This document shows, piece by piece, positions 5,538 through 49,020 of a stretch of 50,987 nt of DNA. Origin of the DNA: Nemertoderma westbladi (taxonomy: Eukaryota > Animalia > Xenacoelomorpha); assembly GCA_032718475.1 (NCBI GenBank), contig JAUCBJ010008559.1, positions 1-50,987 on the forward strand, given 5' to 3'. The position numbers and the translations under genes are program-made. Every line of letters begins with the position of its first letter. The stretch's first letter is position 1. The notes under the pieces were generated by a model, which did no database searches, was not told where the DNA came from, and saw nothing but the letters and a program-made list of their open reading frames with translations.

Positions 5538-6084
5538 GATAAACGATTGTGACTTATGTTAAAGTGGTTTGAAGTGAATCTAATGTTATTTGATAGACCC
5601 TACATGAGTCAGTCTGTGTTCCTTTTATATGTGACTAAAATCAGTGAAGATTGGCAGATTAGTGTGCAGTATTGTGCAGCATTGTGTATGAGTGAGTCTG
5701 TTAAAGAAGCATTCCTAAAGAATGCGCCATATATGTGAATTATAATTAAGCCATATCGTTGTGAGTAGTTTAAGTCATAACTCTGTTTATATAGATAAAG
5801 CGCCACGTTCTAAAGGAACTGTTAATATTCCCGAAGGTGAATAATATTGTCAGAGATTATATAATACTGTCAGTCGAATAATACATTAGGCTTACATAGC
5901 AATAAAATTAAACCGTCGAACCCAATCTCCCGGGAATATCCAGCGGGTGAATGGTCGCGCACGGATTGGTTTCGACTAGTGTAGTGAATCTAATACTTGT
6001 CATAGACTAAAAACTGATTTAATATCTAGAAGACATCTTAATTTGGTGGGTTAAACTGCCAAAGGTCTGAAAGCGCGAACAAAG

Positions 6085-14040: not shown

Positions 14041-14631
14041 TATCAAGGCCTACACAGGTGGATCCAGACATTATGCCATGTCATCAGGTAGGCCTACACT
14101 AGTAGAAGAAACCAGATATTATGCCATGTCACCAGGCCTACATAGTAGAAGAAACCAGATATTATGCCATGTCACCAGGCCTACATAGTAGAAGAAACCA
14201 GATATTATGCCATGTCACCAGGCCTACACAGGTGGATCCAGACATTATGCCATGTCATCAGGTAGGCCTACACTAGTAGAAGAAACCAGATATTATGCCA
14301 TGTCACCAGGCCTACATAGTAGAAGAAACCAGATATTATGCTATGTCACCAGGCCTACATAGTAGAAGAAACCAGATATTATGCCATGTCACCAGGCCTA
14401 CATAGTAGAAGAAACCAGATATTATGCCATGTCACCAGGCCTACATATCTGGTAGAAGAAACCAGATATTGTGCCATGTCACCAGGCCTACATAGTAGAA
14501 GAAACCAGATATTATGCCATGTCACCAGGCCTACACAGGTGGATCCAGACATTATGCCATGTCATCAGGTAGGCCTACATAGTAGAAGAAACCAGATATT
14601 ATGCCATGTCACCAGGCCTACATAGTAGAAG
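14041..14631 (+). repeat. 43-bp diverged variant of the 45-bp minisatellite
   Basis: Unit TATTATGCCATGTCACCAGGCCTACATAGTAGAAGAAACCAGA, alignable to the 45-mer; ends about 37 bp before the Rab splice acceptor. Confidence 0.93.
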
Positions 14632-14668
14632 ATGCCGGAGATTTATTTTAATTCATTTTCTATTTTAG

Positions 14669-14943
14669 TTCAGCTCTTCGTCGTGGGAAATAAAAACGAC
14701 CTGGGTGAATCCGAAGTTAGCAAAGACAGAGTGCAACGCTTTGCGAAGGCCCACGAATGTCAAAATGCCTTCCTTATATCGGCAAAGACAGGACAAGGAG
14801 TCGAAACGGTGTGTCAACAAATAGCCAAAGACCTTCTGGAGCAAACTCAGGCCGAGAAGCAGCATACTGCCACAAGGAACCCCAGTATTAGAGTTGGTGT
14901 GACACCAGAAACCAGTAAATCAGAATCCACCTGTTGGTGCTGA
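14669..14943 (+). CDS. Rab-family small GTPase, terminal coding exon
   Basis: G4 box VVGNKNDL, G5 box ISAKTGQGVE, C-terminal CxC prenylation motif (CWC-stop); acceptor TTTTCTATTTTAG ends at 14668 (alternative CAG at 14673); AATAAA at 15017. G1-G3 exons not in the window. Confidence 0.9.
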
Positions 14944-16709: not shown

Positions 16710-18524
16710 GTAGCATCGATATCAGCTAGATCCATTGCCGGTCCACCCAGTGGGTAACATCGATATCAGCTAGATCCATTGCCGGTCCACCCAGTGGGTA
16801 GCATCGATATCAGCTAGATCCATTGCCGGTCCACCCAGTGGGTAGCATCGATATCAGCTAGATCCATTGCCGGTCCACCCAGTGGGTACCATCGATATCA
16901 GCTAGATCCATTGCCGGTCCACCCAGTGGGTAGCATCGATATCAGCTAGATCCATTGCCGGTCCACCCAGTGGGTAGCATCGATATCAGCTAGATCCATT
17001 GCCGGTCCACCCAGTGGGTAGCATCGATATCAGCTAGATCCATTGCCGGTCCACCCAGTGGGTAACATCGATATCAGCTAGATCCATTGCCGGTCCACCC
17101 AGTGGGTAACATCGATATCAGCTAGATCCATTGCCGGTCCACCCAGTGGGTACCATCGATATCAGCTAGATCCATTGCCGGTCCACCCAGTGGGTAGCAT
17201 CGATATCAGCTAGATCCATTGCCGGTCCACCCAGTGGGTAACATCGATATCAGCTAGATCCATTGCCGGTCCACCCAGTGGGTACCATCGATATCAGCTA
17301 GATCCATTGCCGGTCCACCCAGTGGGTACCATCGATATCAGCTAGATCCATTGCCGGTCCACCCAGTGGGTAACATCGATATCAGCTAGATCCATTGCCG
17401 GTCCACACAGTGGGTAGCATCGATATCAGCTAGATCCATTGCCGGTCCACCCAGTGGGTAGCATCGATATCAGCTAGATCCATTGCCGGTCCACCCAGTG
17501 GGTAGCATCGATATCAGCTAGATCCATTGCCGGTCCACCCAGTGGGTAGCATCGATATCAGCTAGATCCATTGCCGGTCCACCCAGTGGGTACCATCGAT
17601 ATCAGCTAGATCCATTGCCGGTCCACCCAGTGGGTACCATCGATATCAGCTAGATCCATTGCCGGTCCACCCAGTGGGTACCATCGATATCAGCTAGATC
17701 CATTGCCGGTCCACCCAGTGGGTAGCATCGATATCAGCTAGATCCATTGCCGGTCCACCCAGTGGGTACCATCGATATCAGCTAGATCCATTGCCGGTCC
17801 CCCCAGTGGGTAGCATCGATATCAGCTAGATCCATTGCCGGTCCCCCCAGTGGGTAGCATCGATATCAGCTAGATCCATTGCCGGTCCCCCCAGTGGGTA
17901 GCATCGATATCAGCTAGATCCATTGCCGGTCCACCCAGTGGGTAACATCGATATCAGCTAGATCCATTGCCGGTCCACCCAGTGGGTAGCATCGATATCA
18001 GCTAGATCCATTGCCGGTCCCCCCAGTGGGTAGCATCGATATCAGCTAGATCCATTGCCGGTCCCCCCAGTGGGTAGCATCGATATCAGCTAGATCCATT
18101 GCCGGTCCCCCCAGTGGGTAGCATCGATATCAGCTAGATCCATTGCCGGTCCCCCCAGTGGGTAGCATCGATATCAGCTAGATCCATTGCCGGTCCACCC
18201 AGTGGGTAGCATCGATATCAGCTAGATCCATTGCCGGTCCACCCAGTGGGTACCATCGATATCAGCTAGATCCATTGTCGGTCCACCCAGTGGGTAGCAT
18301 CGATATCAGCTAGATCCATTGTCGGTCCACCCAGTGGGTAGCATCGATATCAGCTAGATCCATTGCCGGTCCACCCAGTGGGTAGCATCGATATCAGCTA
18401 GATCCATTGTCGGTCCACCCAGTGGGTAGCATCGATATCAGCTAGATCCATTGTCGGTCCACCCAGTGGGTAGCATCGATATCAGCTAGATCCATTGCCG
18501 GTCCACCCAGTGGGTAGCATCGAC
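16710..18524. repeat. 44-bp minisatellite (~41 copies), intergenic
   Basis: Unit GTAGCATCGATATCAGCTAGATCCATTGCCGGTCCACCCAGTGG, head-to-tail with no spacers. Confidence 0.98.
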
Positions 18525-19290
18525 ATCTGTATTCGGTAACAATGTACTGATAGCTAATTAATATTAGGCCTACAATATGTCGACAATTGGGATTTACGAT
18601 ATTGTCATTAATATTTAAAATTCGTATAAAATCACATATCGATTCCAAGCACTTGTTGGTTCTAAAATATTAATTTAGACGGCGTTGAAGGTGAACAGGA
18701 AGTGTTTGAACACTATAGTATAAAATCGCAGTTGAGTTATTATTATTAATCGCAGTTTATTAATCATCTATAATATAATATAATATAACTTAACGAAATT
18801 AATTAATTATTATCACAATAATTATCGGCAAGATACGTTGTAATAAATGTATTACCTTCCAAAGACGAACTTGCGCTAATGATAATACAATTATGCTAAT
18901 TGAATGCTAAAGACGGAAAAAAACAAGGAATTAAAAAAAAATAACAAAATTATTAATTGCAGCAATTGCACTATAAATAAATATTATAACTAAAATATAA
19001 GAACATAAATGAATTCTGACGGATGGATCCAGGGTACAGTAATATACATCCAGTTACGGATACAGTCATACAGCTAGACAGTAACAGAGATACAGTCAAA
19101 CAGTAAGACATTATTATACATAAATACATCAGGACATGGACATCATTATACATCAACCAACCAACCTTTGACACCCCATCAGCACACTGCATGTTACAGT
19201 TAACATTTAATTAATTCCTGGCAATGAAGGTCCAGCTTGACTGAACCCGGGACGTACATTATTGCTTTTCGCATACTGTATACGTATTAA

Positions 19291-21418: not shown

Positions 21419-22249
21419 CTTAGAAAATAAATAAAAATATTTTCTGTTAATAATAAAAAAAGAAAATGAAAATATAAAAAACATGATTATCAGAAATTTA
21501 TTTCAAAGAAAATTAAATTAAATCCCCGAAAACAAATTCATAGAAATAACTATAAATAGAAACATCCTTTGTGAATTTGTATCGCTAAATGTAAATAGGC
21601 CTCCAACAATATGACCTGCTGTCAATGCAATTGTGATGTAGCTCTCCAAAATTCTAGAAGTCAGCGATATACAAAATTAACAAATAAATGAACCATGTAG
21701 CAAGGCGATCTAGAACTAGTTCTAGACCGCCTTGACATAGACTTAATTAGAATCTCCAGGTTACTTTCTGCGAGGAATCCTAAAAATAAAACTGTGTTGA
21801 CAATGAGTGAGTGATCTCCAACCAAAACCGCTCTAACGATTTTCCTATTATTTTCACCATTGACCGTTTGCCGACCCAAGGGGCGAGTGGTCTACAATGG
21901 AAGGCTCTGATTGGCCGAAACCGAAACTCGATATAACTCGAGTAGAATTAAACGACACTCTTGTAGTCAACACTTTAACCGGAAAAATACAAAAAAAATT
22001 TTGTAACAGCTTCAAAATTTATTACTTTTAGTTGACCTCGGTTGACCAGGCGGTTAATGTCTGGGGCCACTGTCCGGGGGCTAAAGTCATCACTGTCACA
22101 TGTCCGGGTGGCTACTGTCTGGAGGGCCACTGTACCAGTTCGATCCCACCTCCACATGGACGTCATTGCCGACTTTGCCAAGCTGTGCCCAACGAAAAAA
22201 GTTCTATCAATATTCGTGATATACAACCTGCACTAATTAACCAACTCAC

Positions 22250-22430
22250 CTGATTGCAAAGTAAAGAAAACATAATAAGTTTCTTTGCTGGAATCCTTAA
22301 CCCCCACGCATTCCTGTATGTCTACCTGGAATCGGAGATTGCGTTGGAAGACTCCGCCTGTGTAGTAGGATTGTCTCAACTCCGCGTTAAAGCGAGTGGG
22401 GGAGACGACAGTGTGGGATAATTCCTGGGC
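22250..22430 (-). CDS. BRSK: BRSK/SAD-1 kinase exon (KA1 domain)
   Basis: TGTTTTAG|AQELSHTVVSPTRFNAELRQSYYTGGVFQRNLRFQVDI...FFTLQS-G|GTGAGT; 181 bp, phase 0 to 1; resembles BRSK LSHSV.SQTSFRAEY...VFQKPV.FQVDI. Confidence 0.92.
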
Positions 22431-22657
22431 CTAAAACAGGGAAAGGGTGGGATAATTCCTGGGCCTAAAACAGAGAAAGTGTGGGATAATTCCTGGGCCT
22501 AAAACAGGGAAAGTGTGGGATAATTCCTGGGCCTAAAACAGGGAAAGGGTGGGATAATTCCTGGGCCTAAAACAGGGAAAGTGTGGGATAATTCCTGGGC
22601 CTAAAACAGGGAAAGGGTGGGATAATTCCAGGGCCTAAAACAGGGAAAGTGTGGGAT
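22411..22657 (-). repeat. 34-bp tandem repeat made of the BRSK 3' splice site (7 acceptors)
   Basis: Minus-strand unit CTTTCCCTGTTTTAG|GCCCAGGAATTATCCCAC(A/C). Confidence 0.95.
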
Positions 22658-22964
22658 GATTTACATACTAACTACAACACTGTCAGAATTATATTTTTGT
22701 ATTATTTTTTCCCATCTATTACCGTATTGATATATTTAAGTACACGTTTCAATTCAATTTCACAATTAAAAATTAACAATTATAACAATGAATAGCTGTG
22801 TGAGTGATACCAACAAAGATTTGGCCAGGCGATGGAAGCAAGCTTATAAAGCACCTGGCAAGTCTAGAAATTGATCCGTTAATTATATTATATTTTTAAT
22901 TTGGATTTATCAAGGTAAATAAATTTATTAAATGAACTGTTTGTGACATTTATGAATAATAACT

Positions 22965-28749: not shown

Positions 28750-31700
28750 TTTTGTACTTACGGTGTTTTTGCATTATACAACCTGTATGTTAATACATAT
28801 TTCAAGACACATATTTCAATAAAACCGTGTACGTTTTCTTATTATCTATGCAATGACAAAATACCGCAAGTCTTGTTGACTTACGGTTTTTTTGCATAAA
28901 TTTAAGTGACTTACGGTCTTTTTCCTTTGAAACACTATGGACCAAAATCACAAAAAGTGGCCAAAAACGTTTCCCACACGATTCGACTTAATTTTAGAAT
29001 GAAATTTTTTTTGGAACCTAGTAAAGTTATATATATTTTTGAAGATAATTTTATGGTCCAACAGATGCACAAAAAATCATACTGCCACTCCGACTTTGGA
29101 AGATTTTACCGACCTTTTAGTACTAAAAAATGCAGGTTTTTCAATTGTCCAAAAAAGTTCATTGCATTCTGGGGGATGTATTTTGACATCTACTGGGTGT
29201 ATTTCAACAAGTTATAGCTCATTTTAAAGCTAAATAATAGAGGAATGGAATGGAATAACTCCCAAATTGTTTTATTGATATCATATTAAAATAAAACAAT
29301 ATATAATGTACCCCTATTTTTGACAATTACTTGTCCCAAACGGTAACAACTGAATTCACCAATAGGTTTTTATTTGGATTCTATAAACTAAATTCTTATT
29401 TGAAAGGAAAATCTTCAAGAAGTGGAATGTTCCAGATTTTACGAAAAAATACTAAACACAACCGGAGATATGGCTGGTTTTATACGTGCGAGTCGATTAT
29501 GTCAATTAGGATTGTCCCATGTGTAACACCAAGTGCACTGCTTTACCATGCTCTAGAATCAGTTCTAACAAACTTGATATGAAGATTCAAATATCAGAAG
29601 ATAGCTAAGTTCTTGGTCTTTTGCGTGAGTAATCATTTGTGGCAACAATTGACTATGGAATAGACTTTAGTTTCTTTTACATTTATCAGCATGAGCTTTG
29701 TCCCACCTGTAACAAAAGCCTGTAACACAAAAAATCGTTACAAGGCGGGACGTCCCACATGTAACATGTAAATCGAATAATTTTGGGCTACAGAATGGGA
29801 GATGTCTCCCCTGTAACACTTTAGTAGTGCAGACTTTATAATATTGATAAGACTGTAGGTCATGCACACAGAACAGCAGTATTAACTGTGAATTGGTACT
29901 TACCTACCTACAGTAGTACCGCGGTAACAGTATCAGTGCTGTCTCTTTATTGCGTTTGATTATTGCGTTTATTGCGTCTGCGCAGTGCATAGAGTTTACT
30001 ATTGACTACTAAACAAACTAATCCTAACCAGAACCAGTTATAAGACACTGATACAGACACTATGTGACTACGGTATATAATGGAGACCACATTTCATTAC
30101 TTATTAGACATCACCTCGCCGTTCCGGTATCAAGATACTGATTGTAAATAAAAATAGGACTAATAATACTGATCTGTCTTATATGGAATGCGGTCCATCT
30201 TTGATCTATCTTCTGCGATTGGGAGAGGGTGATTGGGAGCGCCGTGAGGGGAGCAGTTAGAGGTGGGAGGGAAAAAAATAGAGGTGCAAGGGGAGCAGTT
30301 TTAGGTGTGAGGGGAAAAGGTAGATGTGCAAGGGGAGCAGTTGGAGGTGGGAGGGGAAAAGGTAGAGGTGCAAGGGGAGCAGTTGGAGGTGCGAGGGGAA
30401 AAAATAGAGGTGCAAGAGGAGTAGTTTTAGGTGTGAGGGGAAAAGGTAGATGTGCAAGGGGAGCAGTTGGAGGTGCGAGGGGAAAAGGTAGAGGTGCAAG
30501 AGGAGCAGTTGGAGGTGTGAGGGGAAAAGGTAGAGGTGCAAGTGGAGCAGTTGGAGGTGCGAGGGGGGAAGGTAGATGTGGAAGGGGAGCAGTTGGAGGA
30601 GCGAGAGGAGTAGTTAGTGCGAGCGCAGTAGGTAGAGGTGCGAGAGGAGTAGTTAGTGCGAGCGCAGTAGGTAGAGGTGCGAGAGGAGTAGTTAGTGCGA
30701 GCGCAGTAGGTAGAGGTGCGAGAGGAGTAGTTAGTGCGAGCGCAGTAGGTAGAGGTGCGAGAGGAGTAGTTAGTGCGAGCGCAGTAGGTAGAGGAGAGGT
30801 GCGAGAGGAGTAGTCAGTGCGAGCGCAGTAGGTAGAGGTGCGAGAGGAGAATGGGAGGATCTGTGGAGGGTGTGGGAGACAGGGTGAAAGGTACAGGAGG
30901 ATCTGTGGAGGGTGTGGGAGACAGGGTGAGAAGTACAGGAGGATCTGTGGAGGGGATGGGAGACGGAGTGGGAAGTACAGGAGGAGCCGTTGAGGGTGTG
31001 GGAGACGGAGTGGGAAGTACAGGAGGAGCCGTGGAGGGTGTGGGAGACGGAGTGGGAAGTACAGGAGGATCTGTGGAGGGTGTGGGAGACGGAGTGGGAG
31101 GATCTGTGGAGGGTTTGGGAGACGGAATGGGAAGTACATGAAGATCTGTTGAGCGTGTGGGAGACAGGGTGAGAAGTACAGGATAATCTGTGGAGGGCGT
31201 GGGAGACAGGGTGAGAAGTACAGGAGGATCTGGGGAGGGTGTGGGAGAAGGGTGAGAAGTACAGGAGGAGCTGTGGGGGGTGTGGGAGACAGGGTGAGAA
31301 GTACAGGAGGATCTGAGGGGGGTGTGGGAGACAGGGTGAGAAGTACAGGAGGATCTGTGGAGGGTGTGGGAGACAGGGTGAGAAGTACAGGAGAATCTGT
31401 GGCGGGCGTGGGAGACAGGGTGAGAAGTACAGGAGGATCTGTGGAGGGTGAGGGAGAAGGGTGAGAAGTACAGGAGGATCTGTGGGGGGTGTGGGAGACA
31501 GGGTGAGAAGTACAGGAGGATCTGAGGGGGTGTGGGAGACAGGGTGAGAAGTACAGGAGGATCTGTGGAGGGTGTGGGAGACAGGGTGAGAAGTACAGGA
31601 GGATCTGTGGAGGGTGTGGGAGACAGGGTGAGAAGTACAGGAGGATTTGTGGAGGGTGTGGGAGACAGGGTGAGAAGTACAGGAGGATCTGTGGAGGGTG

Positions 31701-32930
31701 TGGGAGACAGGGTGAGAAGTACAGGAGGATTTGTGGAGGGTGTGGGAGACAGGGTGAGAAGTACAGGAGGATCTGTGGAGGGTGTGGGATACAGGGTGAG
31801 AAGTACAGGAGGATTTGTGGAGGGTGTGGGAGACAGGGTGAGAAGTACAGGAGGATCTGAGGAGGGTGGGGAAGATGGAGTGGAAGGTACAGGTAGATCT
31901 GTGGAGGGTGGGGATGAAAATGATAATGAACAATTTACAGATTTTGAAGGAGTGGGGGGTATGGGAAGATACGTGGCGGCTATACAAGATAACGTTTGGA
32001 ATACAGGAAAATCTATGGAGGGTGAAGATGATGGAGTGGGGAGTACAGGAGGTTCTGTGGAGGGTGGAGATGAAACTGATGAACAATTTATAGGTTTTGA
32101 CTAACTGCTCAGCCATAGTGATATACAGTTATAAACTCAGTAATAAACTCGTCATACTTTGTGAATTTTCATATAAATCGTCACTAAAGTACCTAAAAGT
32201 GGTTAAAATGTTTTAATAAACTCTTTATGTTTATTTGATAAACTATAATATTTTATAATTTTTCCAGAAATGGGGACCATAAAGATTTATTATGATTGAG
32301 TTTATTTTCAAATAAGCTTTATTGGGATGTGTTACTGGGATCTGGAATGGCTGCATAGCTCCCACTCAGAGACGAAATCTAGGTTAATTTAACATTTCAG
32401 TGTAATTACAACTGGTGTTACATGGTGGGACAAATTGTTACAGGCATCGGAAATCACCATTCAAGGGCTCTGATTGGCTGATATCGGGCGTTACATTGTG
32501 GGACAAGTGTTACAGGAATGGACATCTGTTTTTCTCAATTATTTGTTACCATGAGGTCGGGGCTATTGGGAAATTACCACCATTGAATTCAGCGCATCAA
32601 GAGCTTTCTGGTGATATATAATATTACATACTTTGGGAAACTTTTTTTTTTTACAAAAAAAATAATTTTTTTGGCCACTTTTTGTGATTTTGAGCCTATA
32701 CGTATATGTTGTGACTTACGGTCTTTCTACATTGCATATCTCGAGAACTAGATTATATACGGTGTTCTCGATTATACCATTAGATAAGGCGCACTTTTTA
32801 GACCCGGAAAAAGTGAAGAGTGGATTTTGGAAAAATGCGACTTGCGGTCTTTTTACATTGCACGGCAGAACTATCGTAAGAGGTTGTAATGTCCGTAAAG
32901 TACAAGCCGGCAAAATACCGTGTTTATGAG
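28750..32930. mobile_element. Possible degenerate DNA transposon, boundaries uncertain
   Basis: Both ends carry repeated GACTTACGGT motifs and an inverted pair AAAATCACAAAAAGTGGCCAAAAA (~28944) / TTTTTGGCCACTTTTTGTGATTTT (~32668). Confidence 0.4.
30236..31870. repeat. Purine-rich compound minisatellite (45-, 39- and 42-bp units)
   Basis: Successive units such as GGAGCAGTTGGAGGTGCGAGGGGAAAAGGTAGAGGTGCAAGG, GAGGAGTAGTTAGTGCGAGCGCAGTAGGTAGAGGTGCGA, GTGTGGGAGACAGGGTGAGAAGTACAGGAGGATCTGTGGAGG. Confidence 0.92.
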
Positions 32931-33193: not shown

Positions 33194-34916
33194 TATCCTA
33201 CGGTGCTACTAACTCTATCCTACGGTGCTACTAACTCTATCCTACGGTGCTACTAACTCTATCCTACGGTGCTACTAACTCTATCCTACGGTGCTACTAA
33301 CTCTATCCTACAGTGCTACTAACTCTATCCTACGGTGCTACTAACTCTATCCTATGGTGCTACTAACTCTATCCTACGGTGCTACTAACTCTATCCTACG
33401 GTGCTACTAACTCTATCCTACGGTGCTACTAACTCTATCCTACGGTGCTACTAACTCTATCCTACGGTGCTACTAACTCTATCCTACGGTGCTACTAACT
33501 CTATCCTACGGTGCTACTAACTCTATCCTACGGTGCTACTAACTCTATCCTACGGTGCTACTAACTCTATCCTACGGTGCTACTAACTCTATCCTACGGT
33601 GCTACTAACTCTATCCTACGGTGCTACTAACTCTATCCTACGGTGCTACTAACTCTATCCTACGGTGCTACTAACTCTATCCTACGGTGCTACTAACTCT
33701 ATCCTACGGTGCTACTAACTCTATCCTATGGTGCTACTAACTCTATCCTACGGTGCTACTAACTCTATCCTACGGTGCTACTAACTCTATCCTACGGTGC
33801 TACTAACTCTATCCTACGGTGCTACTAACTCTATCCTACGGTGCTACTAACTCTATCCTACGGTGCTACTAACTCTATCCTACGGTGCTACTAACTCTAT
33901 CCTACGGTGCTACTAACTCGGGCTGCCATCCTACGGTGCTACTAACTCTATCCTACGGTGCTACTAACTCTATCCTACGGTGCTACTAACTCTATCCTAC
34001 GGTGCTACTAACTCTATCCTACGGTGCTACTAACTCTATCCTACGGTGCTACTAACTCTATCCTACGGTGCTACTAACTCTATCCTACGGTGCTACTAAC
34101 TCTATCCTACGGTGCTACTAACTCTATCCTACGGTGCTACTAACTCTATCCTACGGTGCTACTAACTCTATCCTACGGTGCTACTAACTCTATCCTACGG
34201 TGCTACTAACTCTATCCTACGGTGCTACTAACTCTATCCTACGGTGCTACTAACTCTATCCTACGGTGCTACTAACTCTATCCTACGGTGCTACTAACTC
34301 TATCCTACGGTGCTACTAACTCTATCCTACGGTGCTACTAACTCTATCCTACGGTGCTACTAACTCTATCCTACGGTGCTACTAACTCTATCCTACGGTG
34401 CTACTAACTCTATCCTACGGTGCTACTAACTCTATCCTACGGTGCTACTAACTCTATCCTACGGTGCTACTAACTCTATCCTACGGTGCTACTAACTCTA
34501 TCCTACGGTGCTACTAACTCTATCCTACGGTGCTACTAACTCTATCCTACGGTGCTACTAACTCTATCCTACGGTGCTACTAACTCTATCCTACGGTGCT
34601 ACTAACTCTATCCTACGGTGCTACTAACTCTATCCTACGGTGCTACTAACTCTATCCTACGGTGCTACTAACTCTATCCTACGGTGCTACTAACTCTATC
34701 CTACGGTGCTACTAACTCTATCCTACGGTGCTACTAACTCTATCCTACGGTGCTACTAACTCTATCCTACGGTGCTACTAACTCTATCCTACGGTGCTAC
34801 TAACTCGGCACTGTCGTGGGGCAACATATATCCTACGGTGCTACTAACTCTATACTACGGTGCTACTAACTCTATCCTACGGTGCTACTATCTCTATCCT
34901 ACGGTGCTACTAACTC
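33194..34916 (-). repeat. 22-bp minisatellite (~77 copies) made of a BRSK 5' splice site
   Basis: Minus-strand unit GA|GTTAGTAGCACCGTAGGATA; first copy is the donor of exon 34915-35038. Confidence 0.96.
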
Positions 34917-36978: not shown

Positions 36979-37115
36979 AATTGTCCCTGAACCTTTATTG
37001 ATGATTTCCTGCATTGTGTTGGCGACAACGCACTACCACCACCAATGTTTATCTCATTGGTCAATTGTGGTCGAAATCCAATTACAGGTGTTTGGGGCTT
37101 CGCAGTAATTCTCAT
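36979..37115 (-). CDS. BRSK: BRSK/SAD-1 kinase exon (linker)
   Basis: CATTTTAG|MRITAKPQTPVIGFRPQLTNEINIGGGSALSPTQCRKSSIKVQGQ-L|GTAAGT; 137 bp, phase 0 to 2, exactly bridges the flanking exons and gives ...RVDSP-M as in BRSK. Homology otherwise weak. Confidence 0.75.
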
Positions 37116-37619: not shown

Positions 37620-40600
37620 AGGTAAGGTCCCCAGATCCTGCTACCACTATGGCAGTAATGTGGTACTACCTGTAGCTGTCAGCCCAGTAGGGCAGACCCG
37701 ATAAGCATAGCCTATTCATTATTTAGTTGATCAAGAGTGGGTTGGTTTAGCCCCGTCAACTAAATAAGTTATTGAGGGCTATAGCTCCTAGGGCACCATT
37801 GAAGGCAAAGGCTTGATACGCACCTGCATTAGAGATGATACACGCCCCGCCCTGTCTATACTGGATACCTAACCCAAGAGGCACACTTGGTTCAGGGTGT
37901 AACAAATGAACCCCTACAGTCGGCAGCAGGGCTGTAGGCCATGGATAGGCGGAAGGTAATCAACCAATGGCTATAGACATGCTGACAAGGTCGGCGGAAG
38001 GTAATCAACCAACGGCGACCTACTGCGAAGACGCTTGTAGGAGTTGCGACCACAAGCGGTTTACTTCCGCAACTGAAATATATGAGTATGAGAACCCTCC
38101 AGGAGAAATACCGGCTCGGTCGTCGTCCGGGTCAACAAGGACCGCGTACCTCAGTGGTACACCAGGCTGGGGTCGATAAATTGGCTACTGGAACAGAAGA
38201 CAGAGAAGAAAGAAGAACCAACCTGTTGAAATGTAAAAAGACACTAAAGATTGCTACAATGAAGGCACGTACGCTGAAAGCACATACCAAACAGGGTGAC
38301 ATGGTCGCTCTGGCAATGGAATATAACATCGACATCATCTGCATCCAAGAACATCGGATTTGTCATGAAGACACTGCCATGAAGTACAATGACATTGGAA
38401 ATGGATGGACGTTAGTAACAAGCTCAGCAGTAAGAAACTCGGCCAATGCATCAATTGGAGGAGTAGGAATTCTGCTAAGCCCATTTGCACTTAAGACCCT
38501 AAACAACATCGAATCTATAAATTCCATGGTTATGATCGCAACATTTGATGGGAATCCCAAGGCAACAGTTATATGTTGCTACAGTCCAACCAATACCTCA
38601 GAACCAGAACAAGCAGTCAAGTTTTATGAAGAACTGACTGGACTTATAAAGGACATTCCGAAACACAATGTTAAAGCAGAAAACTTAGCAGCTCTTTTAC
38701 TAAGTTTGTTTAGTAATTTTTTTTAGTTATTGTTATTGTCTAGTTATTTTTATATTTATCTAAATATTTGACAATTAACCATTTTTAGATTAAGCACTGA
38801 CCACTTTATTTGTGTATTCTAATCTGTAGTCCTAAATTTAATTTTATTACTTCCCCGACTATTTTACCTAAAACATTATTGCATAGCGGGGACCCACATG
38901 GAAACGAGGTCCGCCTCATGTGGCTATCCCATTAAGTGACAATTTTATCGATATATCTCGCGGAAGATGTACTGTTCATATATTTTTCATACCATACTGA
39001 TTTTAATTCATAACAAAAATATCTCGTACTGTATCTATAACAATTGTATGGTTCCTAACGGTCTATACCAACTTAAATGTTATATATTATGTGTCCCGTC
39101 ACTAATAAATCAATATCAAATATCAAAGTCATTGCTGGTGACCTGAATGCGCAAATTGGCCCAGAAGACATCAAGGGTTACTCCTATAACACCAGTTCTA
39201 ACAGAAATGGGTACTTACTTTTAGACCTAATGGAAGACTGTGAATTGATACCAACAAACAACACATTCGAAAAGAGTAAGGGGAAGCTATGGACCTTTCA
39301 ATACCCTAATGGAACCAAAGCACAACTGGATTACATTCTTATAAACAAAAAGTGGAGAAACAGCATGATCAACTGCGAGGCATACAGCTCGTTCAACCTA
39401 ATTGGTTCGGACCACAAAATTGTGAAGCAAATCAAATATGACTGGGAGAAACTCAGAACTGACAATGCTGTAAAGGATGCTTATACAGTAGAAGTTCAAA
39501 ACCGCTTTGAAGCACTTCAGTCAATGGATGAAGACCAATACACCAATTCAATATACCAGAATATAATAACAGCCCACAAGGAATCAGCTAAGAGGCATAT
39601 ACCCCAGAAACCCAAACGAAAACAGTATGTGCCATGGCAAAACTCTGAGGTTACTTGTAAGAGAGAAGATCTTAAGATAGCCTACAAAGTTAAAACCGAA
39701 CAACCAACAACCGAAAACATTAACAAGGTTGAGAAAGCTAAGGACGATCTTAAATTGGCTTACAACATCAGCCAGGAAAAGTACATACAGGATAAAACTG
39801 AAGCAATTACAACTGCTCACATACAGTAACAATCAAGACTTACCCGGCAAACTGTAAATGAGGTATCTGGTCGGAAAAGTTGTGCAAAGGGGCGCCTCAA
39901 AGCCGATAGTCCTGAAAAACGTGTTGGGAAGTGGAAAAATCACTTCAGCAACTTGCTTGGGCAGCCACCAAACATCGAGGTCAGCCCTACAAGGAAAATA
40001 TATGACAAGACTCTACCTATAGAAACAGGGGACTTCACACCTGCCGAACTCCAAAGAAGCATTAAAAGCATGTCCAATAATAAAGCGAGTGGATTAGATG
40101 AAATCCCAGCGGAGGTATGGAAAACCGGAGTGCTAAACAGACCATTGTTGAATGTTTGCAACCGGATGTTAAAAGGGGAAAATCCACCACCAATTTGGAC
40201 TAAAGGTCAACTAAAGCCTCTCCCCAAGAAAGGAGACCTCGGCGTGGGATCTGTCTGCTTGTGGTAGCTGCCAAAATATACAATAAAATGATTCTATATA
40301 GGATTAGGCCTCACATAGAGAAACTACTGCGTAAGAGCCAAAACGGATTTCGACCAAGTAGATCAACAATAGCTCAGATACTTGCACTACGGAGACTGAT
40401 TGAAGGAATTAAGTCAAAGAATCTCCGCGCAGTCATGACTTTTGTGGACTTCAAGAAGGCATTCGACTCCATCCATAGAGGTAAAATGCTTGAAATCCTA
40501 AGAGCTGATGGAATACCAGAAGTAATTGTTGCTGGCATTGGATTGTTATATTGTGACACAGAAGCGCAGGTACTCTCACCAGATGGTGAAACTGAGTTTT

Positions 40601-41332
40601 TCTCAATCCTGGCTGGCGTACTGCAAGGTGACACATTAGCACCATTACTATTTGTAATTGTGCTGGATTACGCAATGAGGACGGCCACAAAGGGTGAATA
40701 TCTGGGATTCACACTTCAAGAACGCAGAAGTAGTAGATATCCGGCAACTACAGTCACAGACACCGACTTTGCGGATGGCATCGCCCTGCTCTCTAATACG
40801 CTAGCAGATGCACAGCTTCAACTAAATAAAGTGGAGAGGGCTGTTAAGGAGGTTGGATTGCATAAAAATGCTACAAAGACCGAATTCATGACCATTAATG
40901 TTGATGGAAACTTGACAACCATTGATAATAATCAACTAAGGAAGGTCAATGACTTCCAGTACCTTGGATCATGGATAGAGAGTAGCAAAAAGGACATAGA
41001 AGTTAGGAAAGCAAAGGCTTGGGTAGCTCTATCAAAAATGGATACCATCTGGAAATCAGATCTCTCCAGGCACCTGAAGACTAAGTTTTTTCGAGCCACA
41101 GTGGAAAGTGTATTTTTATACGGGGGTGAGACCTGGACACTGACTAAATTACTTGAACAACGAATTGATGGTTGCTACACAAGACTACTAAGGGCAGCCC
41201 TAAACATCAGCTGGAGACAACACATGAAAAACGCCGAGCTTTATGGTACAATACCACCTGTATCAACCACCCGCCGTGAACACAGATTAAGATTCAGTGG
41301 GCACTGCTGGCGAAGTAAAGACGAGGTCATAC
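37620..41332 (+). mobile_element. Near full-length decayed RTE-clade LINE (APE endonuclease plus RT), antisense in a BRSK intron; 5' boundary approximate
   Basis: ICIQEHR, GGVGILL, YSPTN, AGDLNA, QLDYIL, SDH; QNGFRPSRST, FVDFKKAFDS, GVLQGDTLAP, FADG (catalytic DD mutated), RLRFSGHCWR; stop at 39827 and frameshift near 40260; 3' end replaced by the satellite. Confidence 0.95.
38676..39125 (+). mobile_element. ~450-bp insertion in the RTE endonuclease, likely a CR1/L2-group LINE 3' end
   Basis: Splits PKHN-VK/IK-VIAGDLNA; contains a stem-loop (CCACATG...CATGTGG) and ends AATAAATCAATATCAAATATCAAA. Confidence 0.65.
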
Positions 41333-41334
41333 CA

Positions 41335-44300
41335 GCAACACTCACCGGAGTTTTCACTCCTCCGTGGGGGGTCGTGCAACACTCACCGGAGAATGCACCC
41401 ATTTCCGTGGTGGGTCGTGCAACACTCACCGGAGAATCCACCCGTTTCCGTGGAGGGTCGTGCAACACTCACCGGAGAATCCACCCGTTTCCTTGGAGGG
41501 TCGTGCAACACTCACCGGAGAATCCACCCGTTTCCGTGGAGGGTCGTGCAACACTCACCGGATTTGCGTGGAGGGTCGTGTAACACTCACCGGAGAATCC
41601 ACCCGTTTCCGTGGAGGGTCGTGCAACACTCACCGGAGAATCCACCCGTTTCCATGGAGGGTCGTGCAACACTCACCGGAGTTTCCACCCGTTTCCATGG
41701 AGGGTCGTGCAACACTCACCGGATTTGCGTGGAGGGTCGTGTAACACTCACCGGAGAATCCACCCGTTTCCGTGGAGGGGAGGGTCGTGCAACACTCACC
41801 GGAGAATCCACCCGTTTCCTTGGAGGGTCGTGCAACACTCACCAGAGAATCCACCCGTTTCCGTGGTGGGTCGTGCAACACTCACCGGATTTCCGTGGAG
41901 GGTCGTGCAACACTCACCAGAGAATCCACCCGTTTCCGTGGAGGGGAGGGTCGTGCAACACTCACCGGAGAATCCACCCGTTTCCGTGGAGGGTCGTGCA
42001 ACACTCACCGGATTTCCGTGGAGGGTCGTGCAACACTCACCAGAGAATCCACCCGTTTCCGTGGAGGGGAGGGTCGTGCAACACTCACCGGAGAATCCAC
42101 CCGTTTCCGTGGAGGGTCGTGCAACACTCACCGGATTTCCGTGGAGGGTCGTGCAACACTCACCAGAGAATCCACCCGTTTCCGTGGAGGGGAGGGTCGT
42201 GCAACACTCACCGGAGAATCCACCCGTTTCCATGGAGGGTCGTGCAACACTCACCGGAGTTTCCACCCGTTTCCATGGAGGGTCGTGCAACACTCACCGG
42301 ATTTGCGTGGAGGGTCGTGTAACACTCACCGGAGAATCCACCCGTTTCCGTGGAGGGGAGGGTCGTGCAACACTCACCGGAGAATCCACCCGTTTCCGTG
42401 GAGGGTCGTGCAACACTCACCGGAGAATCCACCCGTTTCCTTGGAGGGTCGTGCAACACTCACCAGAGAATCCACCCGTTTCCGTGGTGGGTCGTGCAAC
42501 ACTCACCGGATTTCCGTGGAGGGTCGTGTAACACTCACCGGAGAATCCACCCGTTTCCGTGGAGGGGAGGGTCGTGCAACACTCACCGGAGAATCCACCC
42601 GTTTCCATGGAGGGTCGTGCAACACTCACCAGAGAATCCACCCGTTTCCGTGGAGGGGAGGGTCGTGCAACACTCACCGGAGAATCCACCCGTTTCCGTG
42701 GAGGGTCGTGCAACACTCACCGGAGTTTCCACCCGTTTCCATGGAGGGTCGTGCAACACTCACCGGATTTGCGTGGAGGGTCGTGTAACACTCACCGGAG
42801 AATCCACCCGTTTCCGTGGAGGGGAGGGTCGTGCAACACTCACCGGAGAATCCACCCGTTTCCATGGAGGGTCGTGCAACACTCACCGGAGTTTCCACCC
42901 GTTTCCATGGAGGGTCGTGCAACACTCACCGGATTTGCGTGGAGGGTCGTGTAACACTCACCGGAGAATCCACCCGTTTCCGTGGAGGGGAGGGTCGTGC
43001 AACACTCACCGGAGAATCCACCCGTTTCCATGGAGGGTCGTGCAACACTCACCAGAGAATCCACCCGTTTCCGTGGAGGGGAGGGTCGTGCAACACTCAC
43101 CGGAGAATCCACCCGTTTCCGTGGAGGGTCGTGCAACACTCACCGGAGTTTCCACCCGTTTCCATGGAGGGTCGTGCAACACTCACCGGATTTGCGTGGA
43201 GGGTCGTGTAACACTCACCGGAGAATCCACCCGTTTCCGTGGAGGGGAGGGTCGTGCAACACTCACCGGAGAATCCACCCGTTTCCATGGAGGGTCGTGC
43301 AACACTCACCGGAGTTTCCACCCGTTTCCATGGAGGGTCGTGCAACACTCACCGGATTTGCGTGGAGGGTCGTGTAACACTCACCGGAGAATCCACCCGT
43401 TTCCGTGGAGGGGAGGGTCGTGCAACACTCACCGGAGAATCCACCCGTTTCCATGGAGGGTCGTGCAACACTCACCAGAGAATCCACCCGTTTCCGTGGA
43501 GGGGAGGGTCGTGCAACACTCACCGGAGAATCCACCCGTTTCCGTGGAGGGTCGTGCAACACTCACCGGATTTCCGTGGAGGGTCGTGCAACACTCACCA
43601 GAGAATCCACCCGTTTCCGTGGAGGGGAGGGTCGTGCAACACTCACCGGAGAATCCACCCGTTTCCGTGGAGGGTCGTGCAACACTCACCGGAGAATCAA
43701 CCCGTTTCCATGGAGGGTCGTGCAACACTCACCGGAGAATCCACCCGTTTCCGTGGAGGGTCGTGCAACACTCACCGGATTTCCGTGGAGGGTCGTGCAA
43801 CACTCACCAGAGAATCCACCCGTTTCCGTGGTGGGTCGTGCAACACTCACCGGATTTCCGTGGAGGGTCGTGCAACACTCACCGGAGAATCCACCCGTTT
43901 CCATGGAGGGTCGTGCAACACTCACCAGAGAATCCACCCGTTTCCGTGGAGGGGAGGGTCGTGCAACACTCACCGGAGAATCCACCCGTTTCCGTGGAGG
44001 GGAGGGTCGTGCAACACTCACCGGAGAATCCACCCGTTTCCATGGAGGGTCGTGCAACACTCACCAGAGAATCCACCCGTTTCCGTGGAGGGTCGTGCAA
44101 CACTCACCGGAGAATCAACCCGTTTCCATGGAGGGTCGTGCAACACTCACCAGAGAATCCACCCGTTTCCGTGGAGGGTCGTGCAACACTCACCGGAGAA
44201 TCCACCCGTTTCCGTGGAGGGTCGTGCAACACTCACCGGATTTCCGTGGAGGGTCGTGCAACACTCACCGGAGAATCCACCCGTTTCCGTGGAGGGGAGG

Positions 44301-44482
44301 GTCGTGCAACACTCACCGGAGAATCAACCCGTTTCCATGGAGGGTCGTGCAACACTCACCGGAGAATCCACCCGTTTCCATGGAGGGTCGTGCAACACTC
44401 ACCGGAGAATCCACCCGTTTCCGTGGGAGGGTCGTGCAACACTCACCGGAGAATCCACCCGTTTCCGTGGTGGGTCGTGCAA
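41335..44482 (-). repeat. 43-bp minisatellite (32- and 48-bp variants, ~75 copies) made of a BRSK exon end plus 5' splice site
   Basis: Minus-strand unit TTGCACGACCCTCCACGGAAACGGGTGGATTCTCCG|GTGAGTG = [12 protein letters not shown] plus donor. Confidence 0.97.
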
Positions 44483-44585
44483 CGAATGACGTTCTCGTAG
44501 AATGTCGGGGGCGTCTTCCTGACAAGGTTTACGCAACTTCCGGTCCAACAGAAGGTAGTAAATAACTCGTTCTTGGTTGTTATCG
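44447..44585 (-). CDS. BRSK: BRSK/SAD-1 kinase exon (UBA C-terminal half)
   Basis: TTTTGTGTAG|[25 protein letters not shown]...[12 protein letters not shown]|GTGAGT; 139 bp, phase 2 to 0; matches BRSK NQEKMIY.LLLDRK...[10 protein letters not shown]. Confidence 0.96.
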
Positions 44586-44731
44586 CTACACAAAAGTATT
44601 CAAATAAAGTCATAATGATTAATGACGTTTAATTTTCTATAAATGATCTTACTGAAGAATCACGGTTTATACTGAAGCCTTGGTTGTTACTAATGAAAAG
44701 TAAAGACAAGAGTCGGAAATATATTACTTAC

Positions 44732-44911
44732 ACATCGGCCAGTATTCTATCAACTAATTTATCTTTAGCTTTGAAGCAGCCAAGCGAATTCATGTTGGCT
44801 AGAACATCGGGGTCAATGTCTTCCTCGGAGATTAGGTTGACCTTGGATGACGACATTGACGACGTTGGGCCAGTGGAGAAGGGCATGGGGCCACGGTCGT
44901 CTTTCAATTTA
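44732..44911 (-). CDS. BRSK: BRSK/SAD-1 kinase exon (UBA N-terminal half)
   Basis: TATTTCAG|..KLKDDRG...EEDIDPDVLANMNSLGCFKAKDKLVDRILAD-V|GTAAGT; 180 bp, phase 2 to 2; matches BRSK EDIDPDVLDSM.SLGCF. Confidence 0.95.
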
Positions 44912-45019
44912 CTGAAATATACGAAATAAAGAATTATTTCTAATTAATGATAATTAGTTGACAAAAATTTGGTGAATGTACACAGATAATTCCCCAATAA
45001 AAATCTTAAAATGATGAAT

Positions 45020-45922
45020 GTTGAGTGTGTGTGAGTGAGTGTTGAGTGTGTGTGAGTGAGTGTTGAGTGTGTGTGAGTGAGTGTTGAGTGTGTGTGAGTG
45101 AGTGTTGAGTGTGTGTGAGTGAGTGTTGAGTGTGTGTGAGTGAGTGTTGAGTGTGTGTGAGTGAGTGTTGAGTGTGTGTGAGTGAGTGTTGAGTGTGTGT
45201 GAGTGAGTGTTGAGTGTGTGTGAGTGAGTGTTGAGTGTGTGTGAGTGAGTGTTGAGTGTGTGTGAGTGAGTGTTGAGTGTGTGTGAGTGAGTGTTGAGTG
45301 TGTGTGAGTGAGTGTTGAGTGTGTGTGAGTGAGTGTTAAGTGTGTGTGAGTGAGTGAGTGTTGAGTATGTGTGAGTGAGTGTTGAGTGTGTGTGAGTGAG
45401 TGTTGAGTGTGTGTGAGTGAGTGAGTGTTGAGTGTGTGTGAGTGAGTGTTGAGTGTGTGTGAGTGAGTGTTGAGTGTGTGTGAGTGAGTGTTGAGTGTGT
45501 GTGTGTGAGTGTTGAGTGTGTGTGAGTGAGTGTTGAGTGTGTGTGAGTGAGTGTTGAGTGTGTGTGAGTGAGTGTTGAGTGTGTGTGAGTGAGTGTTGAG
45601 TGTGTGTGAGTGAGTGTTGAGTGTGTGTGAGTGAGTGTTGAGTGTGTGTGAGTGAGTGTTGAGTGTGTGTGAGTGAGTGTTGAGTGTGTGTGAGTGAGTG
45701 TTGAGTGTGTGTGAGTGAGTGTTAAGTGTGTGTGAGTGAGTGAGTGTTGAGTGTGTGTGAGTGAGTGTTGAGTGTGTGTGAGTGAGTGTTGAGTGTGTGT
45801 GAGTGAGTGTTGAGTGTGTGTGTGTGAGTGTTGAGTGTGTGTGAGTGAGTGTTGAGTGTGTGTGAGTGAGTGTTGAGTGTGTGTGAGTGAGTGTTGAGTG
45901 TGTGTGAGTGAGTGTTGAGTGT
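45020..45922. repeat. 21-bp TG-rich minisatellite (~43 copies)
   Basis: Unit TGTTGAGTGTGTGTGAGTGAG. Confidence 0.97.
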
Positions 45923-46715
45923 GGCGCCAAATTTCTTACAAAAAGACAAAAGCGGTATTGTTATTTTACCGCTTCCCTCCCGAAGGTTTTCAATGTTTGA
46001 CTAAAGTGCAATGAATTGTACAATGAATGGTAAAAAATAATTATTTATTTCTGTATTCTTGATATAAACAAAATAATTACATAGCAAATTACACATTCAC
46101 CAGACTCTATCTATACTGTGACCTATACTGTATAGTTAGCCCTGACCTATACTGTATAGTTAGCCCTAAGCCGAGCTGCCTTCTCAGCTATCCATTAAAC
46201 CTGTTAACAAATTTCACGGTAGGTGGACCGGACCGTATGTATGCTGAGGTTATGTATCTTATCTTTTGGGTTTCTTAGAAAATAATTTTTCCTGATGCAT
46301 AACTTCAACTGACAGTGATAGCTGTGATTAAAAAATCACAGCCTTTCTGAATAGTAGTAAGTTTTACTCGATCTAATAATATCTGTGAAATATGGAAATT
46401 AGTAACTGGATTTCATTTAAGGAGTGTGGTAGTGACTGACTTAATTACAATATTGGGGAGTTTTGAGTCGGTGGGGTTGACTTGTGTACGAGAGGCTATT
46501 TACAGGAGCTTCGGTCAACCAATAGGGATCCCGCGGCTTAAATATGTTTTAATTATTAATGATTTTACCAGTCCAACAGTCAAACTAGGAACACACCAAT
46601 TATTTGTTTACAATTTTTTCAAAAAATTGCGCAATAAAATATGTTATAGCTTACATAAAGTATTACGTCAATAAAATATGTAAGGCTGAGTCGATACTTA
46701 TAATGGTTCTGATTG

Positions 46716-49020
46716 GTGTAACATATGGGTCTGATAGGTGTAACATATGGGTCTGATAGGTGTAACATATGGGTCTGATAGGTGTAACATATGGGTCTGG
46801 TAGGTGTAACATATGGGTCTGATAGGTGAAACATATGGGTCTGATAGGTTGTAACATATGGGTCGGATATGTGTAACATATGGGTCTGGTAGGTGTAACA
46901 TATGGGTCTGATAGGTGTAACATATGGGTCTGATAGGTTGTAACATATGGGTCGGATATGTGTAACATAAGGGTCTGATAGGCGTAACATATGGGTCTGA
47001 TAGGTGTAACATATGGGTCTGATAGGTGTAACATATGGGTCTTATATGTGTAACATATGGGTCTGATAGGTGTAACATATGGGTCTGATAGGTGTAACAT
47101 ATGGGTCTGACAGGTGTAACATATGGGTCTGATATGTGTAACATATGGGTCTGATGATAGGCGTAACATATGGGTCTGATAGGTGTAACATATGAGTCTG
47201 ATATGTGTAGCATATGGGTCTGATAGGTGTAACATGTGGGTCCGATAGGTGCAACATATGGGTCTGATAGGTGTAACATATGAGTCTGATATGTGTAACA
47301 TATGGGTCTGATATGTGTAACATATGGGTCTGATAGGTGTAACATATGGGTCTGATAGGTGTTACACATGGGTCTGATAGGGGTAACATATGGGTCTGAT
47401 AGGTGTAACATATGGGTCTGGTAGGTGTAACATATGGGTCTGATAGGTGTAACATATGGGTCTGGTAGGTGTAACATATGAGTCTGATATGTGTAACATA
47501 TGGGTTTGATAGGTGTAACATATGAGTCTGATATGTGTAACATATGGGTCTGATAGGTGTAACATATGGGTCTGATAGGTGTAACATATGAGTCTGATAT
47601 GTGTAACATATGGGTCTGATATGTGTAACATATGGGTCTGATAGGTGTAACATATGGGTCTGATAGGCGTAACATATGGGTCTGATAGGTGTAACATATG
47701 GGTCTGATAGGTTGTAACATATGGGTCGGATATGTGTAACATATGGGTCTGGTAGGTGTAACATATGGGTCTGATAGGTGTAACATATGGGTCTGATAGG
47801 TTGTAACATATGGGTCGGATATGTGTAACATATGGGTCTGATAGGCGTAACATATGGGTCTGATAGGTGTAACATATGGGTCTGATAGGTGTAACATATG
47901 GGTCTTATATGTGTAACATATGGGTCTGATAGGTGTAACATATGGGTCTGATAGGTGTAACATATGGGTCTGATAGGTGTAACATATGGGTCTGATATGT
48001 GTAACATATGGGTCTGATGATAGGCGTAACATATGGGTCTGATAGGTGTAACATATGAGTCTGATATGTGTAGCATATGGGTCTGATAGGTGTAACATGT
48101 GGGTCCGATAGGTGCAACATATGGGTCTGATAGGTGTAACATATGAGTCTGATATGTGTAACATATGAGTCTGATATGTGTAACATATGGGTCTGATAGG
48201 TGTAACATATGGGTCTGATAGGTGTTACACATGGGTCTGATAGGGGTAACATATGGGTCTGATAGGTGTAACATATGGGTCTGGTAGGTGTAACATATGG
48301 GTCTGATAGGTGTAACATATGGGTCTGGTAGGTGTAACATATGAGTCTGATATGTGTAACATATGGGTTTGATAGGTGTAACATATGAGTCTGATATGTG
48401 TAACATATGGGTCTGATAGGTGTAACATATGGGTCTGATAGGTGTAACATATGAGTCTGATATGTGTAACATATGGGTCTGATATGTGTAACATATGGGT
48501 CTGATAGGTGTAACATATGGGTCTGATAGGTATTACACATGGGTCTGATAGGGGTAACATATGGGTCTGATAGGTGTAACATATGGGTCTGGTAGGTGTA
48601 ACATATGAGTCTGATATGTGTAACATATGGGTTTGATAGGTGTAACATATGGGTCTGATAGGTGTAACATATGAGTCTGATATGTGTAACATATGGGTCT
48701 GATAGGTGTAACATATGGGTCTGATAGGTGTAACATATGAGTCTGATATGTGTAACATATGGGTCTGATATGTGTAACATATGGGTCTGATAGGTGTAAC
48801 ATATGGGTCTGATAGGTGTAACTAACATATGGGTCTGATAGGTGTAACATATGGGTCTGATAGGTGTAACACATGGGTCTGATAGGTGTAACATATGGGT
48901 CTGATAGGTGTAATATATGGGTCTGATAGGTGTAACATATGAGTCTGATATGTGTAACATATGGGTCTGATATGTGTAACATATGGGTCTGATATGTGTA
49001 ACATATGGGTCTGATATGGG
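46716..49020. repeat. 22-bp minisatellite (~105 copies) with 863-bp higher-order duplication
   Basis: Unit GTAACATATGGGTCTGATAGGT; rare variants (CTGATGATAGGCG, GTAGCA, GGTCCGATAGGTGCAAC) recur 863 bp apart. Confidence 0.97.

What the first reader, a model, noticed from the sequence alone, without database searches (positions are those of the whole stretch)
41335..44482. 3.1-kb array of a conserved exon end ([12 protein letters not shown]) plus a perfect CCG|GTGAGT donor
The unit is the last 36 coding nt of exon 44447-44585 plus GTGAGTG, so about 75 consensus donors, most in the same context as the real one, lie directly downstream in the pre-mRNA. The first extra unit is 44 bp: using donor 2 frameshifts, and reading past it hits TGA at 44399-44401, so only donor 1 is productive. 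GTGAGT appears intact in the 32-, 43- and 48-bp variants while the exon-derived part varies. How the spliceosome selects the first of ~75 equivalent donors is unexplained.
Basis: partly seen in the sequence, partly recalled or inferred. Interest (0 to 1): 0.85.

Follow-up and report, generated by a model that had tools for sequence, protein, structure and literature searches.

The report
Repeated splice donor in kinase intron
In an animal BRSK/SAD kinase gene, the end of one exon and its splice signal are repeated 75 times head to tail, yet the one assembled RNA found uses only the first signal, so this is likely an ordinary, tolerated repeat of a kind already described in human and lancelet genes.

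Summary
The array is real: 75 GTGAGT donors on the minus strand, 44446 to 41345 (62 CCG|GT, 13 CTG|GT), in units of mostly 43, 48 and 32 bp. It starts at the end of a UBA-domain exon of a BRSK/SAD kinase gene. Only donor 1 keeps the frame open. A spliced contig from an RNA run joins donor 1 to the acceptor at 37115, and none of that run's contigs holds a unit junction. That RNA comes from another haplotype of unknown array length, and decay of faulty messages would hide other donors. The same contig uses the last of 7 repeated acceptors in a second, 34-bp array of this gene, which favours choice anchored on the exon over plain first-come scanning. GTGAGT alone is not significantly protected (P 0.06-0.11), though its half of the unit is quiet. 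The array abuts a 3'-truncated LINE, in a window that is 41% tandem repeat. This is a boundary-spanning minisatellite like human F7, ABCA7 and CBS VNTRs and amphioxus 'mirages'. The scan found this kind before on other DNA: 21 findings in at least 11 genomes. New member of a known kind; low interest.

The parts
41335..44483 (-). Minisatellite of 75 copies; unit = last 36 nt of the exon + GTGAGTG; 32/43/48-bp variants, higher-order blocks (633-bp exact repeat at offset 423), two degenerate units at the distal end
44447..44585 (-). BRSK/SAD kinase exon, 139 nt: end of the UBA domain and the conserved DPPRKRVDS motif; its last 36 nt are the first array unit
   Evidence: Pfam UBA_BRSK E 9.4e-07; BRSK1/2 hits at 55-64% identity; RNA contig
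44441..44449 (-). Donor 1, CCG|GTGAGT, the authentic 5' splice site; intron 44446-37116 (7331 bp)
   Evidence: loose end of the X2 contig equals 37110-37081
44399..44401 (-). In-frame TGA that makes donors 3-75 unproductive
44732..44911 (-). Upstream exon, start of the UBA domain
   Evidence: Pfam E 8.5e-10; joint 44585/44732 in X2; acceptor context
36979..37115 (-). Downstream exon, 137 nt; acceptor at 37115 shown by RNA, donor end inferred from GTAAGT and frame
39077..41334 (+). Broken LINE (endonuclease and reverse transcriptase pieces), antisense in the intron; its reading frame is cut off exactly at the distal end of the array, about 60 codons short of its relatives. Its 5' part extends further towards 38200 (read from sequence only)
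   Evidence: RVT_1 E 6.5e-28, Exo_endo_phos E 0.0075; 77 of 84 homologs with the GHCxR motif (105 examined) run 40 or more residues past it, median 71, against 12 here
22410..22661 (-). Second boundary-spanning array in the same gene: 34-bp unit x7.4 that repeats the acceptor of a KA1-domain exon 7 times; only the last (22430) is productive and it is the one in the RNA contig
   Evidence: KA1_BRSK E 2.6e-08

Best explanation
A 43-bp piece spanning the exon end and splice donor of a BRSK/SAD kinase gene is repeated 75 times, likely as a selfishly grown, neutral minisatellite that survives because splicing in the one RNA contig seen uses the exon-nearest donor. Shown: the array, its exon origin, donor 1 in the RNA contig, stops behind all other donors, block-wise homogenisation, and the same exon-nearest choice at a repeated acceptor in the same gene. 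Inferred: the unit arose by a local tandem duplication and grew by slippage or unequal exchange; the spliceosome defines the 139-nt exon from its unique acceptor and takes the first donor it meets (as in F7); any leak to donors 2-75 carries a premature stop and would be removed by nonsense-mediated decay; a later deletion joined the distal end of the array to the inside of a LINE.
For: RNA contig (3638 nt, depth 131.6) runs through the unique part of the exon and joins 44447 to 37115; X2 laid 1 contig and has depth 0 at 44395-44436. 1 of 75 donors is open. The same contig uses the last of 7 acceptors at 22430. Variants are few and copied in blocks: a 4-unit word occurs 4 times, reached by 0 of 10000 shuffles; terminal units are the most diverged. 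12 grouped arrays cover 20822 of 50987 bases, so arrays are routine here; 2 of 10 arrays in the gene region sit on a splice site against a rough expectation of 0.26 (P about 0.03 unconditioned, but one of the two is why the window was flagged). No protection of GTGAGT alone. Precedents: F7, 6-16, CBS, LMNB2, PDGF, ABCA7 with 12-427 units, amphioxus mirages at both boundaries.
Against: The RNA is one run, contigs only, from a haplotype that differs from the window at 11 letters in the last exon and 3' UTR; its array may be short. Contigs drop rare forms and decay would hide leak, so choice by the spliceosome and clean-up afterwards are not separated. In mammalian tests two strong donors 45 nt or more apart splice almost wholly at the downstream one (PMC3413131), the opposite of what is seen here. 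The donor-containing half of the unit is quieter than chance (P 0.005-0.034, post hoc).
Confidence: 0.8

Rival explanations
1. The array is a length-dependent dial: downstream donors are used often, their products are destroyed, and longer alleles lower the amount of kinase mRNA or favour skipping of the next exon, as reported for the ABCA7 VNTR.
For: All 74 extra donors are strong and lead to stops. Mammalian data favour the downstream of two strong donors at this spacing. ABCA7 shows retention of one unit and length-dependent skipping of the next exon. Depth hints at very different lengths between runs: X3 1.9 against 18.2 expected for the window allele, X1 0.71-0.83 of expected.
Against: No X2 contig holds a unit junction. 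In F7 the number of monomers did not change donor choice; in ABCA7 use of the second donor did not depend on length. An effect need not be a selected function.
Confidence: 0.1
2. The spliceosome does not prefer donor 1 at all; it spreads over many donors or takes downstream ones, and only decay makes the mature pool look clean, with no regulatory role.
For: Only the productive site survives at both arrays, which decay alone would also give. Predicted RNA structure does not single out donor 1: rank 53 and 42 of 75 for openness.
Against: Random choice among 75 would leave about 1% productive mRNA (arithmetic), a heavy cost; in F7, in-frame pseudo-sites were also unused.
Confidence: 0.07
3. The length of 75 units is inflated by assembly; the true array is short.
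For: X3 shows a single 73-nt contig, the size of one 43-bp cycle, at 1.9 times flank depth and none of the 48-bp variant. No contig spans the array.
Against: X1 and X6 hold several variant units; X1 depth ratios (21.2, 11.2, 12.1) follow the window's k-mer counts (27.7, 13.5, 17.0), and X6, from another study, has the 48-bp variant. X1 may be the source of the window, and X6's flank depth is uncertain (3.6 here, 19.6 at 21-22 kb).
Confidence: 0.03

Closest known systems
Human F7 intron 7 VNTR (37 bp x5-9); Borensztajn et al. 2006, PMC1557585 (read parts 1, 3 and 4 of 6: abstract, introduction, part of results, start of discussion)
   Same: First monomer spans the exon-intron boundary; identical donors follow; only the most upstream is used.
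   Different: Here 36 of 43 bases are coding sequence (F7: 4 of 37), 75 copies, a stronger donor, and every extra donor leads to a stop.
Amphioxus 'mirage' minisatellites (Adh3, globins BflGb6 and BflGb9, troponin C, PGBD5); PMC3087553 and PMC3902484 (passages read); the original Adh3 paper PMC117041 was not held and is known only through these
   Same: Invertebrate animal; tandem copies of exon-intron boundaries at donor or acceptor; normal splicing; homogenised core with divergent edge units; more than one such array in one gene (PGBD5).
   Different: More copies than the globin and PGBD5 cases (2-7); another animal (not identified here); distal end cut by a LINE junction.
Human ABCA7 intron 18 VNTR (25 bp x12-427); De Roeck et al. 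2018, PMC5954066 (passages read)
   Same: Each unit begins with the donor; very long alleles; use of the second donor gives a frameshift and premature stop.
   Different: Unit is intronic from the GT on, not exon-derived; an effect of length on next-exon skipping is shown there and untested here.
Human 6-16, CBS intron 13, LMNB2 and PDGF intron 4 minisatellites (known only from the introduction of PMC1557585)
   Same: Repeated donors, 10-25 copies; authentic site alone, or with the next two, is used.
   Different: Low-level use of donors 2-3 could not be measured here.

Membership tests
Boundary-spanning minisatellite ('mirage', F7-type VNTR) | Head-to-tail repeat of minisatellite size | tested here: met
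   period 43, 75.1 copies; 32-48 bp units
Boundary-spanning minisatellite ('mirage', F7-type VNTR) | Terminal unit spans an authentic exon-intron boundary | tested here: met
   RNA contig leaves the genome at 44447 for 37115
Boundary-spanning minisatellite ('mirage', F7-type VNTR) | Splice signal kept in many copies | tested here: met
   75 of 75 GTGAGT with G at -1
Boundary-spanning minisatellite ('mirage', F7-type VNTR) | Main mRNA uses the authentic site | tested here: met
   one contig, one RNA run, another haplotype
Boundary-spanning minisatellite ('mirage', F7-type VNTR) | Extra sites silent or nearly so | tested here: inconclusive
   no unit-junction contig in X2, but contigs drop rare forms and no raw reads were listed
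Boundary-spanning minisatellite ('mirage', F7-type VNTR) | Variable length between alleles | tested here: inconclusive
   depth ratio 1.9 in X3 against 18.2 expected; X1 near the window; X6 uncertain
Boundary-spanning minisatellite ('mirage', F7-type VNTR) | Concerted evolution inside, divergent edge units | tested here: met
   block repeats; last two units most diverged
Boundary-spanning minisatellite ('mirage', F7-type VNTR) | Somatic instability (Adh3) | not testable with these tools
   needs single-animal long reads or small-pool PCR
Tandem exon cassette (mutually exclusive exons) | Each copy has its own acceptor and keeps frame | tested here: not met
   the only AG in the common units lies inside GTGAG; unit lengths 43 and 32 are not multiples of three
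Recursive splice sites | AG directly before GT at each site (definition recalled) | tested here: not met
   all sites read CCG|GT or CTG|GT
BRSK/SAD kinase (host gene) | UBA_BRSK and KA1_BRSK domains in order | tested here: met
   4 exons pass Pfam cut-offs; on one RNA contig
BRSK/SAD kinase (host gene) | N-terminal kinase domain | not tested
   not found in the part of the window read; the RNA contig extends about 1100 nt upstream of 44912

The most novel reading that the evidence does not exclude
The 74 spare donors are a working, length-variable sink that sets how much SAD/BRSK kinase mRNA survives, and the gene, with one donor array and one acceptor array both resolved at the exon-nearest copy, shows exon-anchored splice-site choice that overrides the downstream-site rule in a non-vertebrate animal.
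Probability: 0.1. Interest if true: 0.55.

Novelty: new member of a known kind. Interest (0 to 1): 0.2.

Why it matters
As it stands it is one more boundary-spanning minisatellite, long and unusually rich in coding sequence. Its use is as a test bed: mammalian experiments disagree on whether the first (F7) or the downstream (duplicated strong donors) site wins, and this gene offers 75 donors and 7 acceptors on one transcript, possibly with short and long alleles. It also warns annotators that such arrays give 74 false partial copies of a conserved kinase motif.

Tried and rejected
No whole genome is held, so no genome-wide count of such arrays and no other copy of the LINE. No RNA holder was listed by record; X2 proved to be spliced only when laid. 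RNA structure as the selector: donor 1 is not more open than the rest (rank 53 and 42 of 75). A special DNA hairpin as the seed: z -0.52, 0.92, 1.35 for donor-array stretches and -0.93 for the acceptor unit. Coding repeat, exon cassette and recursive splicing: rejected from the unit's sequence. A 5-bp direct repeat at both ends could be the seed of the duplication, but the distal one is equally a cut-off unit at the LINE junction, so this is undecided. Exact 31-base unit pattern in JGI metagenomes: 0 matches. Homolog search with the KA1 exon: 12 candidates, none passed, so the animal's group was not placed. Literature search BRSK2 + tandem repeat + intron: 3 papers, none on this by listing; scan notes on a BRSK array: 0; notes on this genome: 0. 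PMC10078293 passages held nothing on repeated donors. The X3 'short allele' reading was not accepted: no exit contig from the repeat cycle was shown and the library type is not on record.

Full report
Observation. TRF finds one array at 41335-44483, period 43, 75.1 copies. On the minus strand 75 of the window's 82 GTGAGT lie in it, from 44446 to 41345; 62 are CCG|GTGAGT and 13 CTG|GTGAGT. The 74 intervals fall into 15 types: 43 bp x40, 48 x17, 32 x15, 44 x1, 41 x1. The unit is the last 36 nt of exon 44585-44447 plus GTGAGTG; the commonest type differs from the exon copy by one synonymous base, which only 4 of 74 units share with the exon.

Host gene. Exons at 44911-44732 and 44585-44447 match Pfam UBA_BRSK and exons at 25335-25212 and 22430-22251 match KA1_BRSK, all above cut-off. 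The array exon finds BRSK1/2 of fishes, a crinoid and Trichoplax at 55-64% identity (7 of 8 candidates) and weakly mouse or human BRSK2 structures (E 0.04); DPPRKRVDS is in the three homologs printed. The animal was not identified; no genome is held.

Which donor is used. In silico, 1 of 75 donors leaves the frame open through the next two exons; donor 2 (+44 nt) makes a stop at the junction and donors 3-75 include TGA 44401-44399 (the first attempt started the second downstream exon one base off and was corrected). Eight runs were listed, none on record as RNA. I laid four on 44395-45010. X2 turned out to be spliced: one 3638-nt contig, depth 131.6, skips the 146-nt intron, covers the whole exon, and its loose end equals 37110-37081. 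So the main mRNA joins donor 1 to the acceptor at 37115. X2 laid no other contig and has depth 0 at 44395-44436. Limits: one run, contigs only, and a haplotype that differs from the window at 11 letters near the 3' end, so its array length is unknown; messages from other donors carry early stops and would be removed by nonsense-mediated decay (established knowledge, not tested).

A second array in the same gene. A 34-bp unit x7.4 at 22410-22661 repeats the acceptor of a KA1 exon 7 times; only the last, 22430, is free of stops, and the same X2 contig uses it, its loose end matching the exon that ends at 25212. So the first donor and the last acceptor are used: in both cases the copy next to the unique exon body. 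A simple 5'-to-3' first-come rule would pick the first acceptor; exon-anchored choice, or decay, fits both. Two of 10 arrays in the gene region lie on a splice site against a rough 0.26 expected; since one was the reason for the flag, this is no evidence of targeting.

Is GTGAGT protected? The units are block copies (a 633-bp exact repeat at offset 423; a 4-unit word four times, 0 of 10000 shuffles), so the 74 units are not independent. They hold 15 distinct substitutions in 11 columns; P(no hit in 6 of 43 columns) is 0.105, the longest invariant run of 10 has P 0.29, an 8-column exon-derived run is just as invariant, and position -2 of the donor does vary. Adding 4 indels gives 0.058. Against my reading, the 19 columns from -1 to +18 hold 1 of 19 events (P 0.005, or 0.034 with linked changes merged; width chosen after the fact). 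That half holds the donor and 11 exon-derived bases, so it may as well reflect a mutable other half. Predicted RNA structure does not favour donor 1 (rank 53 and 42 of 75 for openness), and the unit does not fold better than shuffles as DNA.

Origin and length. Twelve grouped arrays cover 20822 of 50987 bases (five small TRF loci left out), so minisatellites are routine here. The distal end is joined to an antisense LINE whose frame stops 12 residues after the GHC motif; 77 of 84 homologs with the motif (105 examined) go on for 40 or more residues, median 71. I infer a deletion that removed the LINE's 3' end and the original start of the intron. Depth ratios in X1 (21.2, 11.2, 12.1) follow the window's k-mer counts (27.7, 13.5, 17.0); X3 gives 1.9 against 18.2 with a single 73-nt contig; X6 gives 19.3, 10.0, 10.5 against a local flank of 3.6, but its depth at 21-22 kb is 19.6. 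X1 may be the source of the window; X3 and X6 share a sample code yet differ at some letters. This is a hint of length variation, not proof.

Comparison. PMC1557585 (parts 1, 3, 4 of 6 read) describes the F7 intron 7 VNTR, shows that only the most upstream of identical donors is used whatever the number of monomers, and lists 6-16, CBS, LMNB2 and PDGF. PMC5954066 (passages) describes ABCA7 with 12-427 units, retention of one unit, and length-dependent skipping of the next exon. PMC3087553 and PMC3902484 (passages) describe amphioxus 'mirages' at both boundaries with normal splicing. PMC3413131 (passages) reports the contrary rule for duplicated strong donors 45 nt or more apart, which is why the mechanism keeps some interest. 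The Adh3 paper was not held. No supplements were read. Three searches on this repeat type listed 5, 1 and 1 papers, the mirage search 7 and the BRSK2 search 3; none listed describes this gene's array, which is a statement about these searches only. The scan's notes hold 21 like findings in at least 11 other genomes, unchecked by me on their own DNA.

Verdict. A real, long, exon-rich member of the boundary-spanning minisatellites, most likely neutral and tolerated (0.8). Interest 0.2. The boldest reading left open, a length-dependent sink on kinase mRNA with exon-anchored choice at both arrays, has probability 0.1.

Noticed in passing
window 22410-22661 (-): 34-bp array repeats the acceptor of the KA1 exon 7 times; RNA uses the last. 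Ends share a 10-bp direct repeat. Cycle-contig depth 129.7 in X1 (flank 16-22) and 385 in X6 (flank 19.6) hints at about 6-8 and about 20 copies.
   Followed up: yes
window 39077-41334 (+): Antisense LINE in the intron, cut off at its 3' end exactly at the array; also interrupted by an unrelated AT-rich stretch near 38700-39130 (read from sequence).
   Followed up: partly
window 44471: The one difference between the exon copy and the commonest unit is synonymous, whereas most other unit substitutions would change residues; compatible with exchange between array and exon filtered by selection, but it is a single event.
   Followed up: no
window 30247-31914 (-): 42-bp repeats give a long proline/threonine-rich open frame, but only 807 nt of mRNA lie between 44447 and 22430 in the X2 contig, of which 683 are placed, so these repeats are not in that mRNA; 124 nt of exon remain unplaced.
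   Followed up: partly
window 6082-14632 (+): 8.5-kb 45/43-bp array with a CAG|GT donor-like word in its units, ending about 40 bp before the last exon of a Ras-family gene (14629-14940, Pfam Ras E 3.1e-06) that converges on BRSK; no exon was seen at its start.
   Followed up: partly
window 22150-22198: A short, very high-copy dispersed repeat just inside the intron (bin depth 16259-41684 in DNA runs against about 20), also in RNA contigs.
   Followed up: no
window 2-2050 (+): 683-aa open frame with CCHC-like knuckles, resembling a retrotransposon gag/protease region by eye; no Pfam hit at E 0.01.
   Followed up: no
window 16710-18527, 33194-34916, 45015-45923, 46703-49016: Further young minisatellites (44, 22, 21, 22 bp; 41-105 copies; 91-98% matches) that touch no known splice site.
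   Followed up: no
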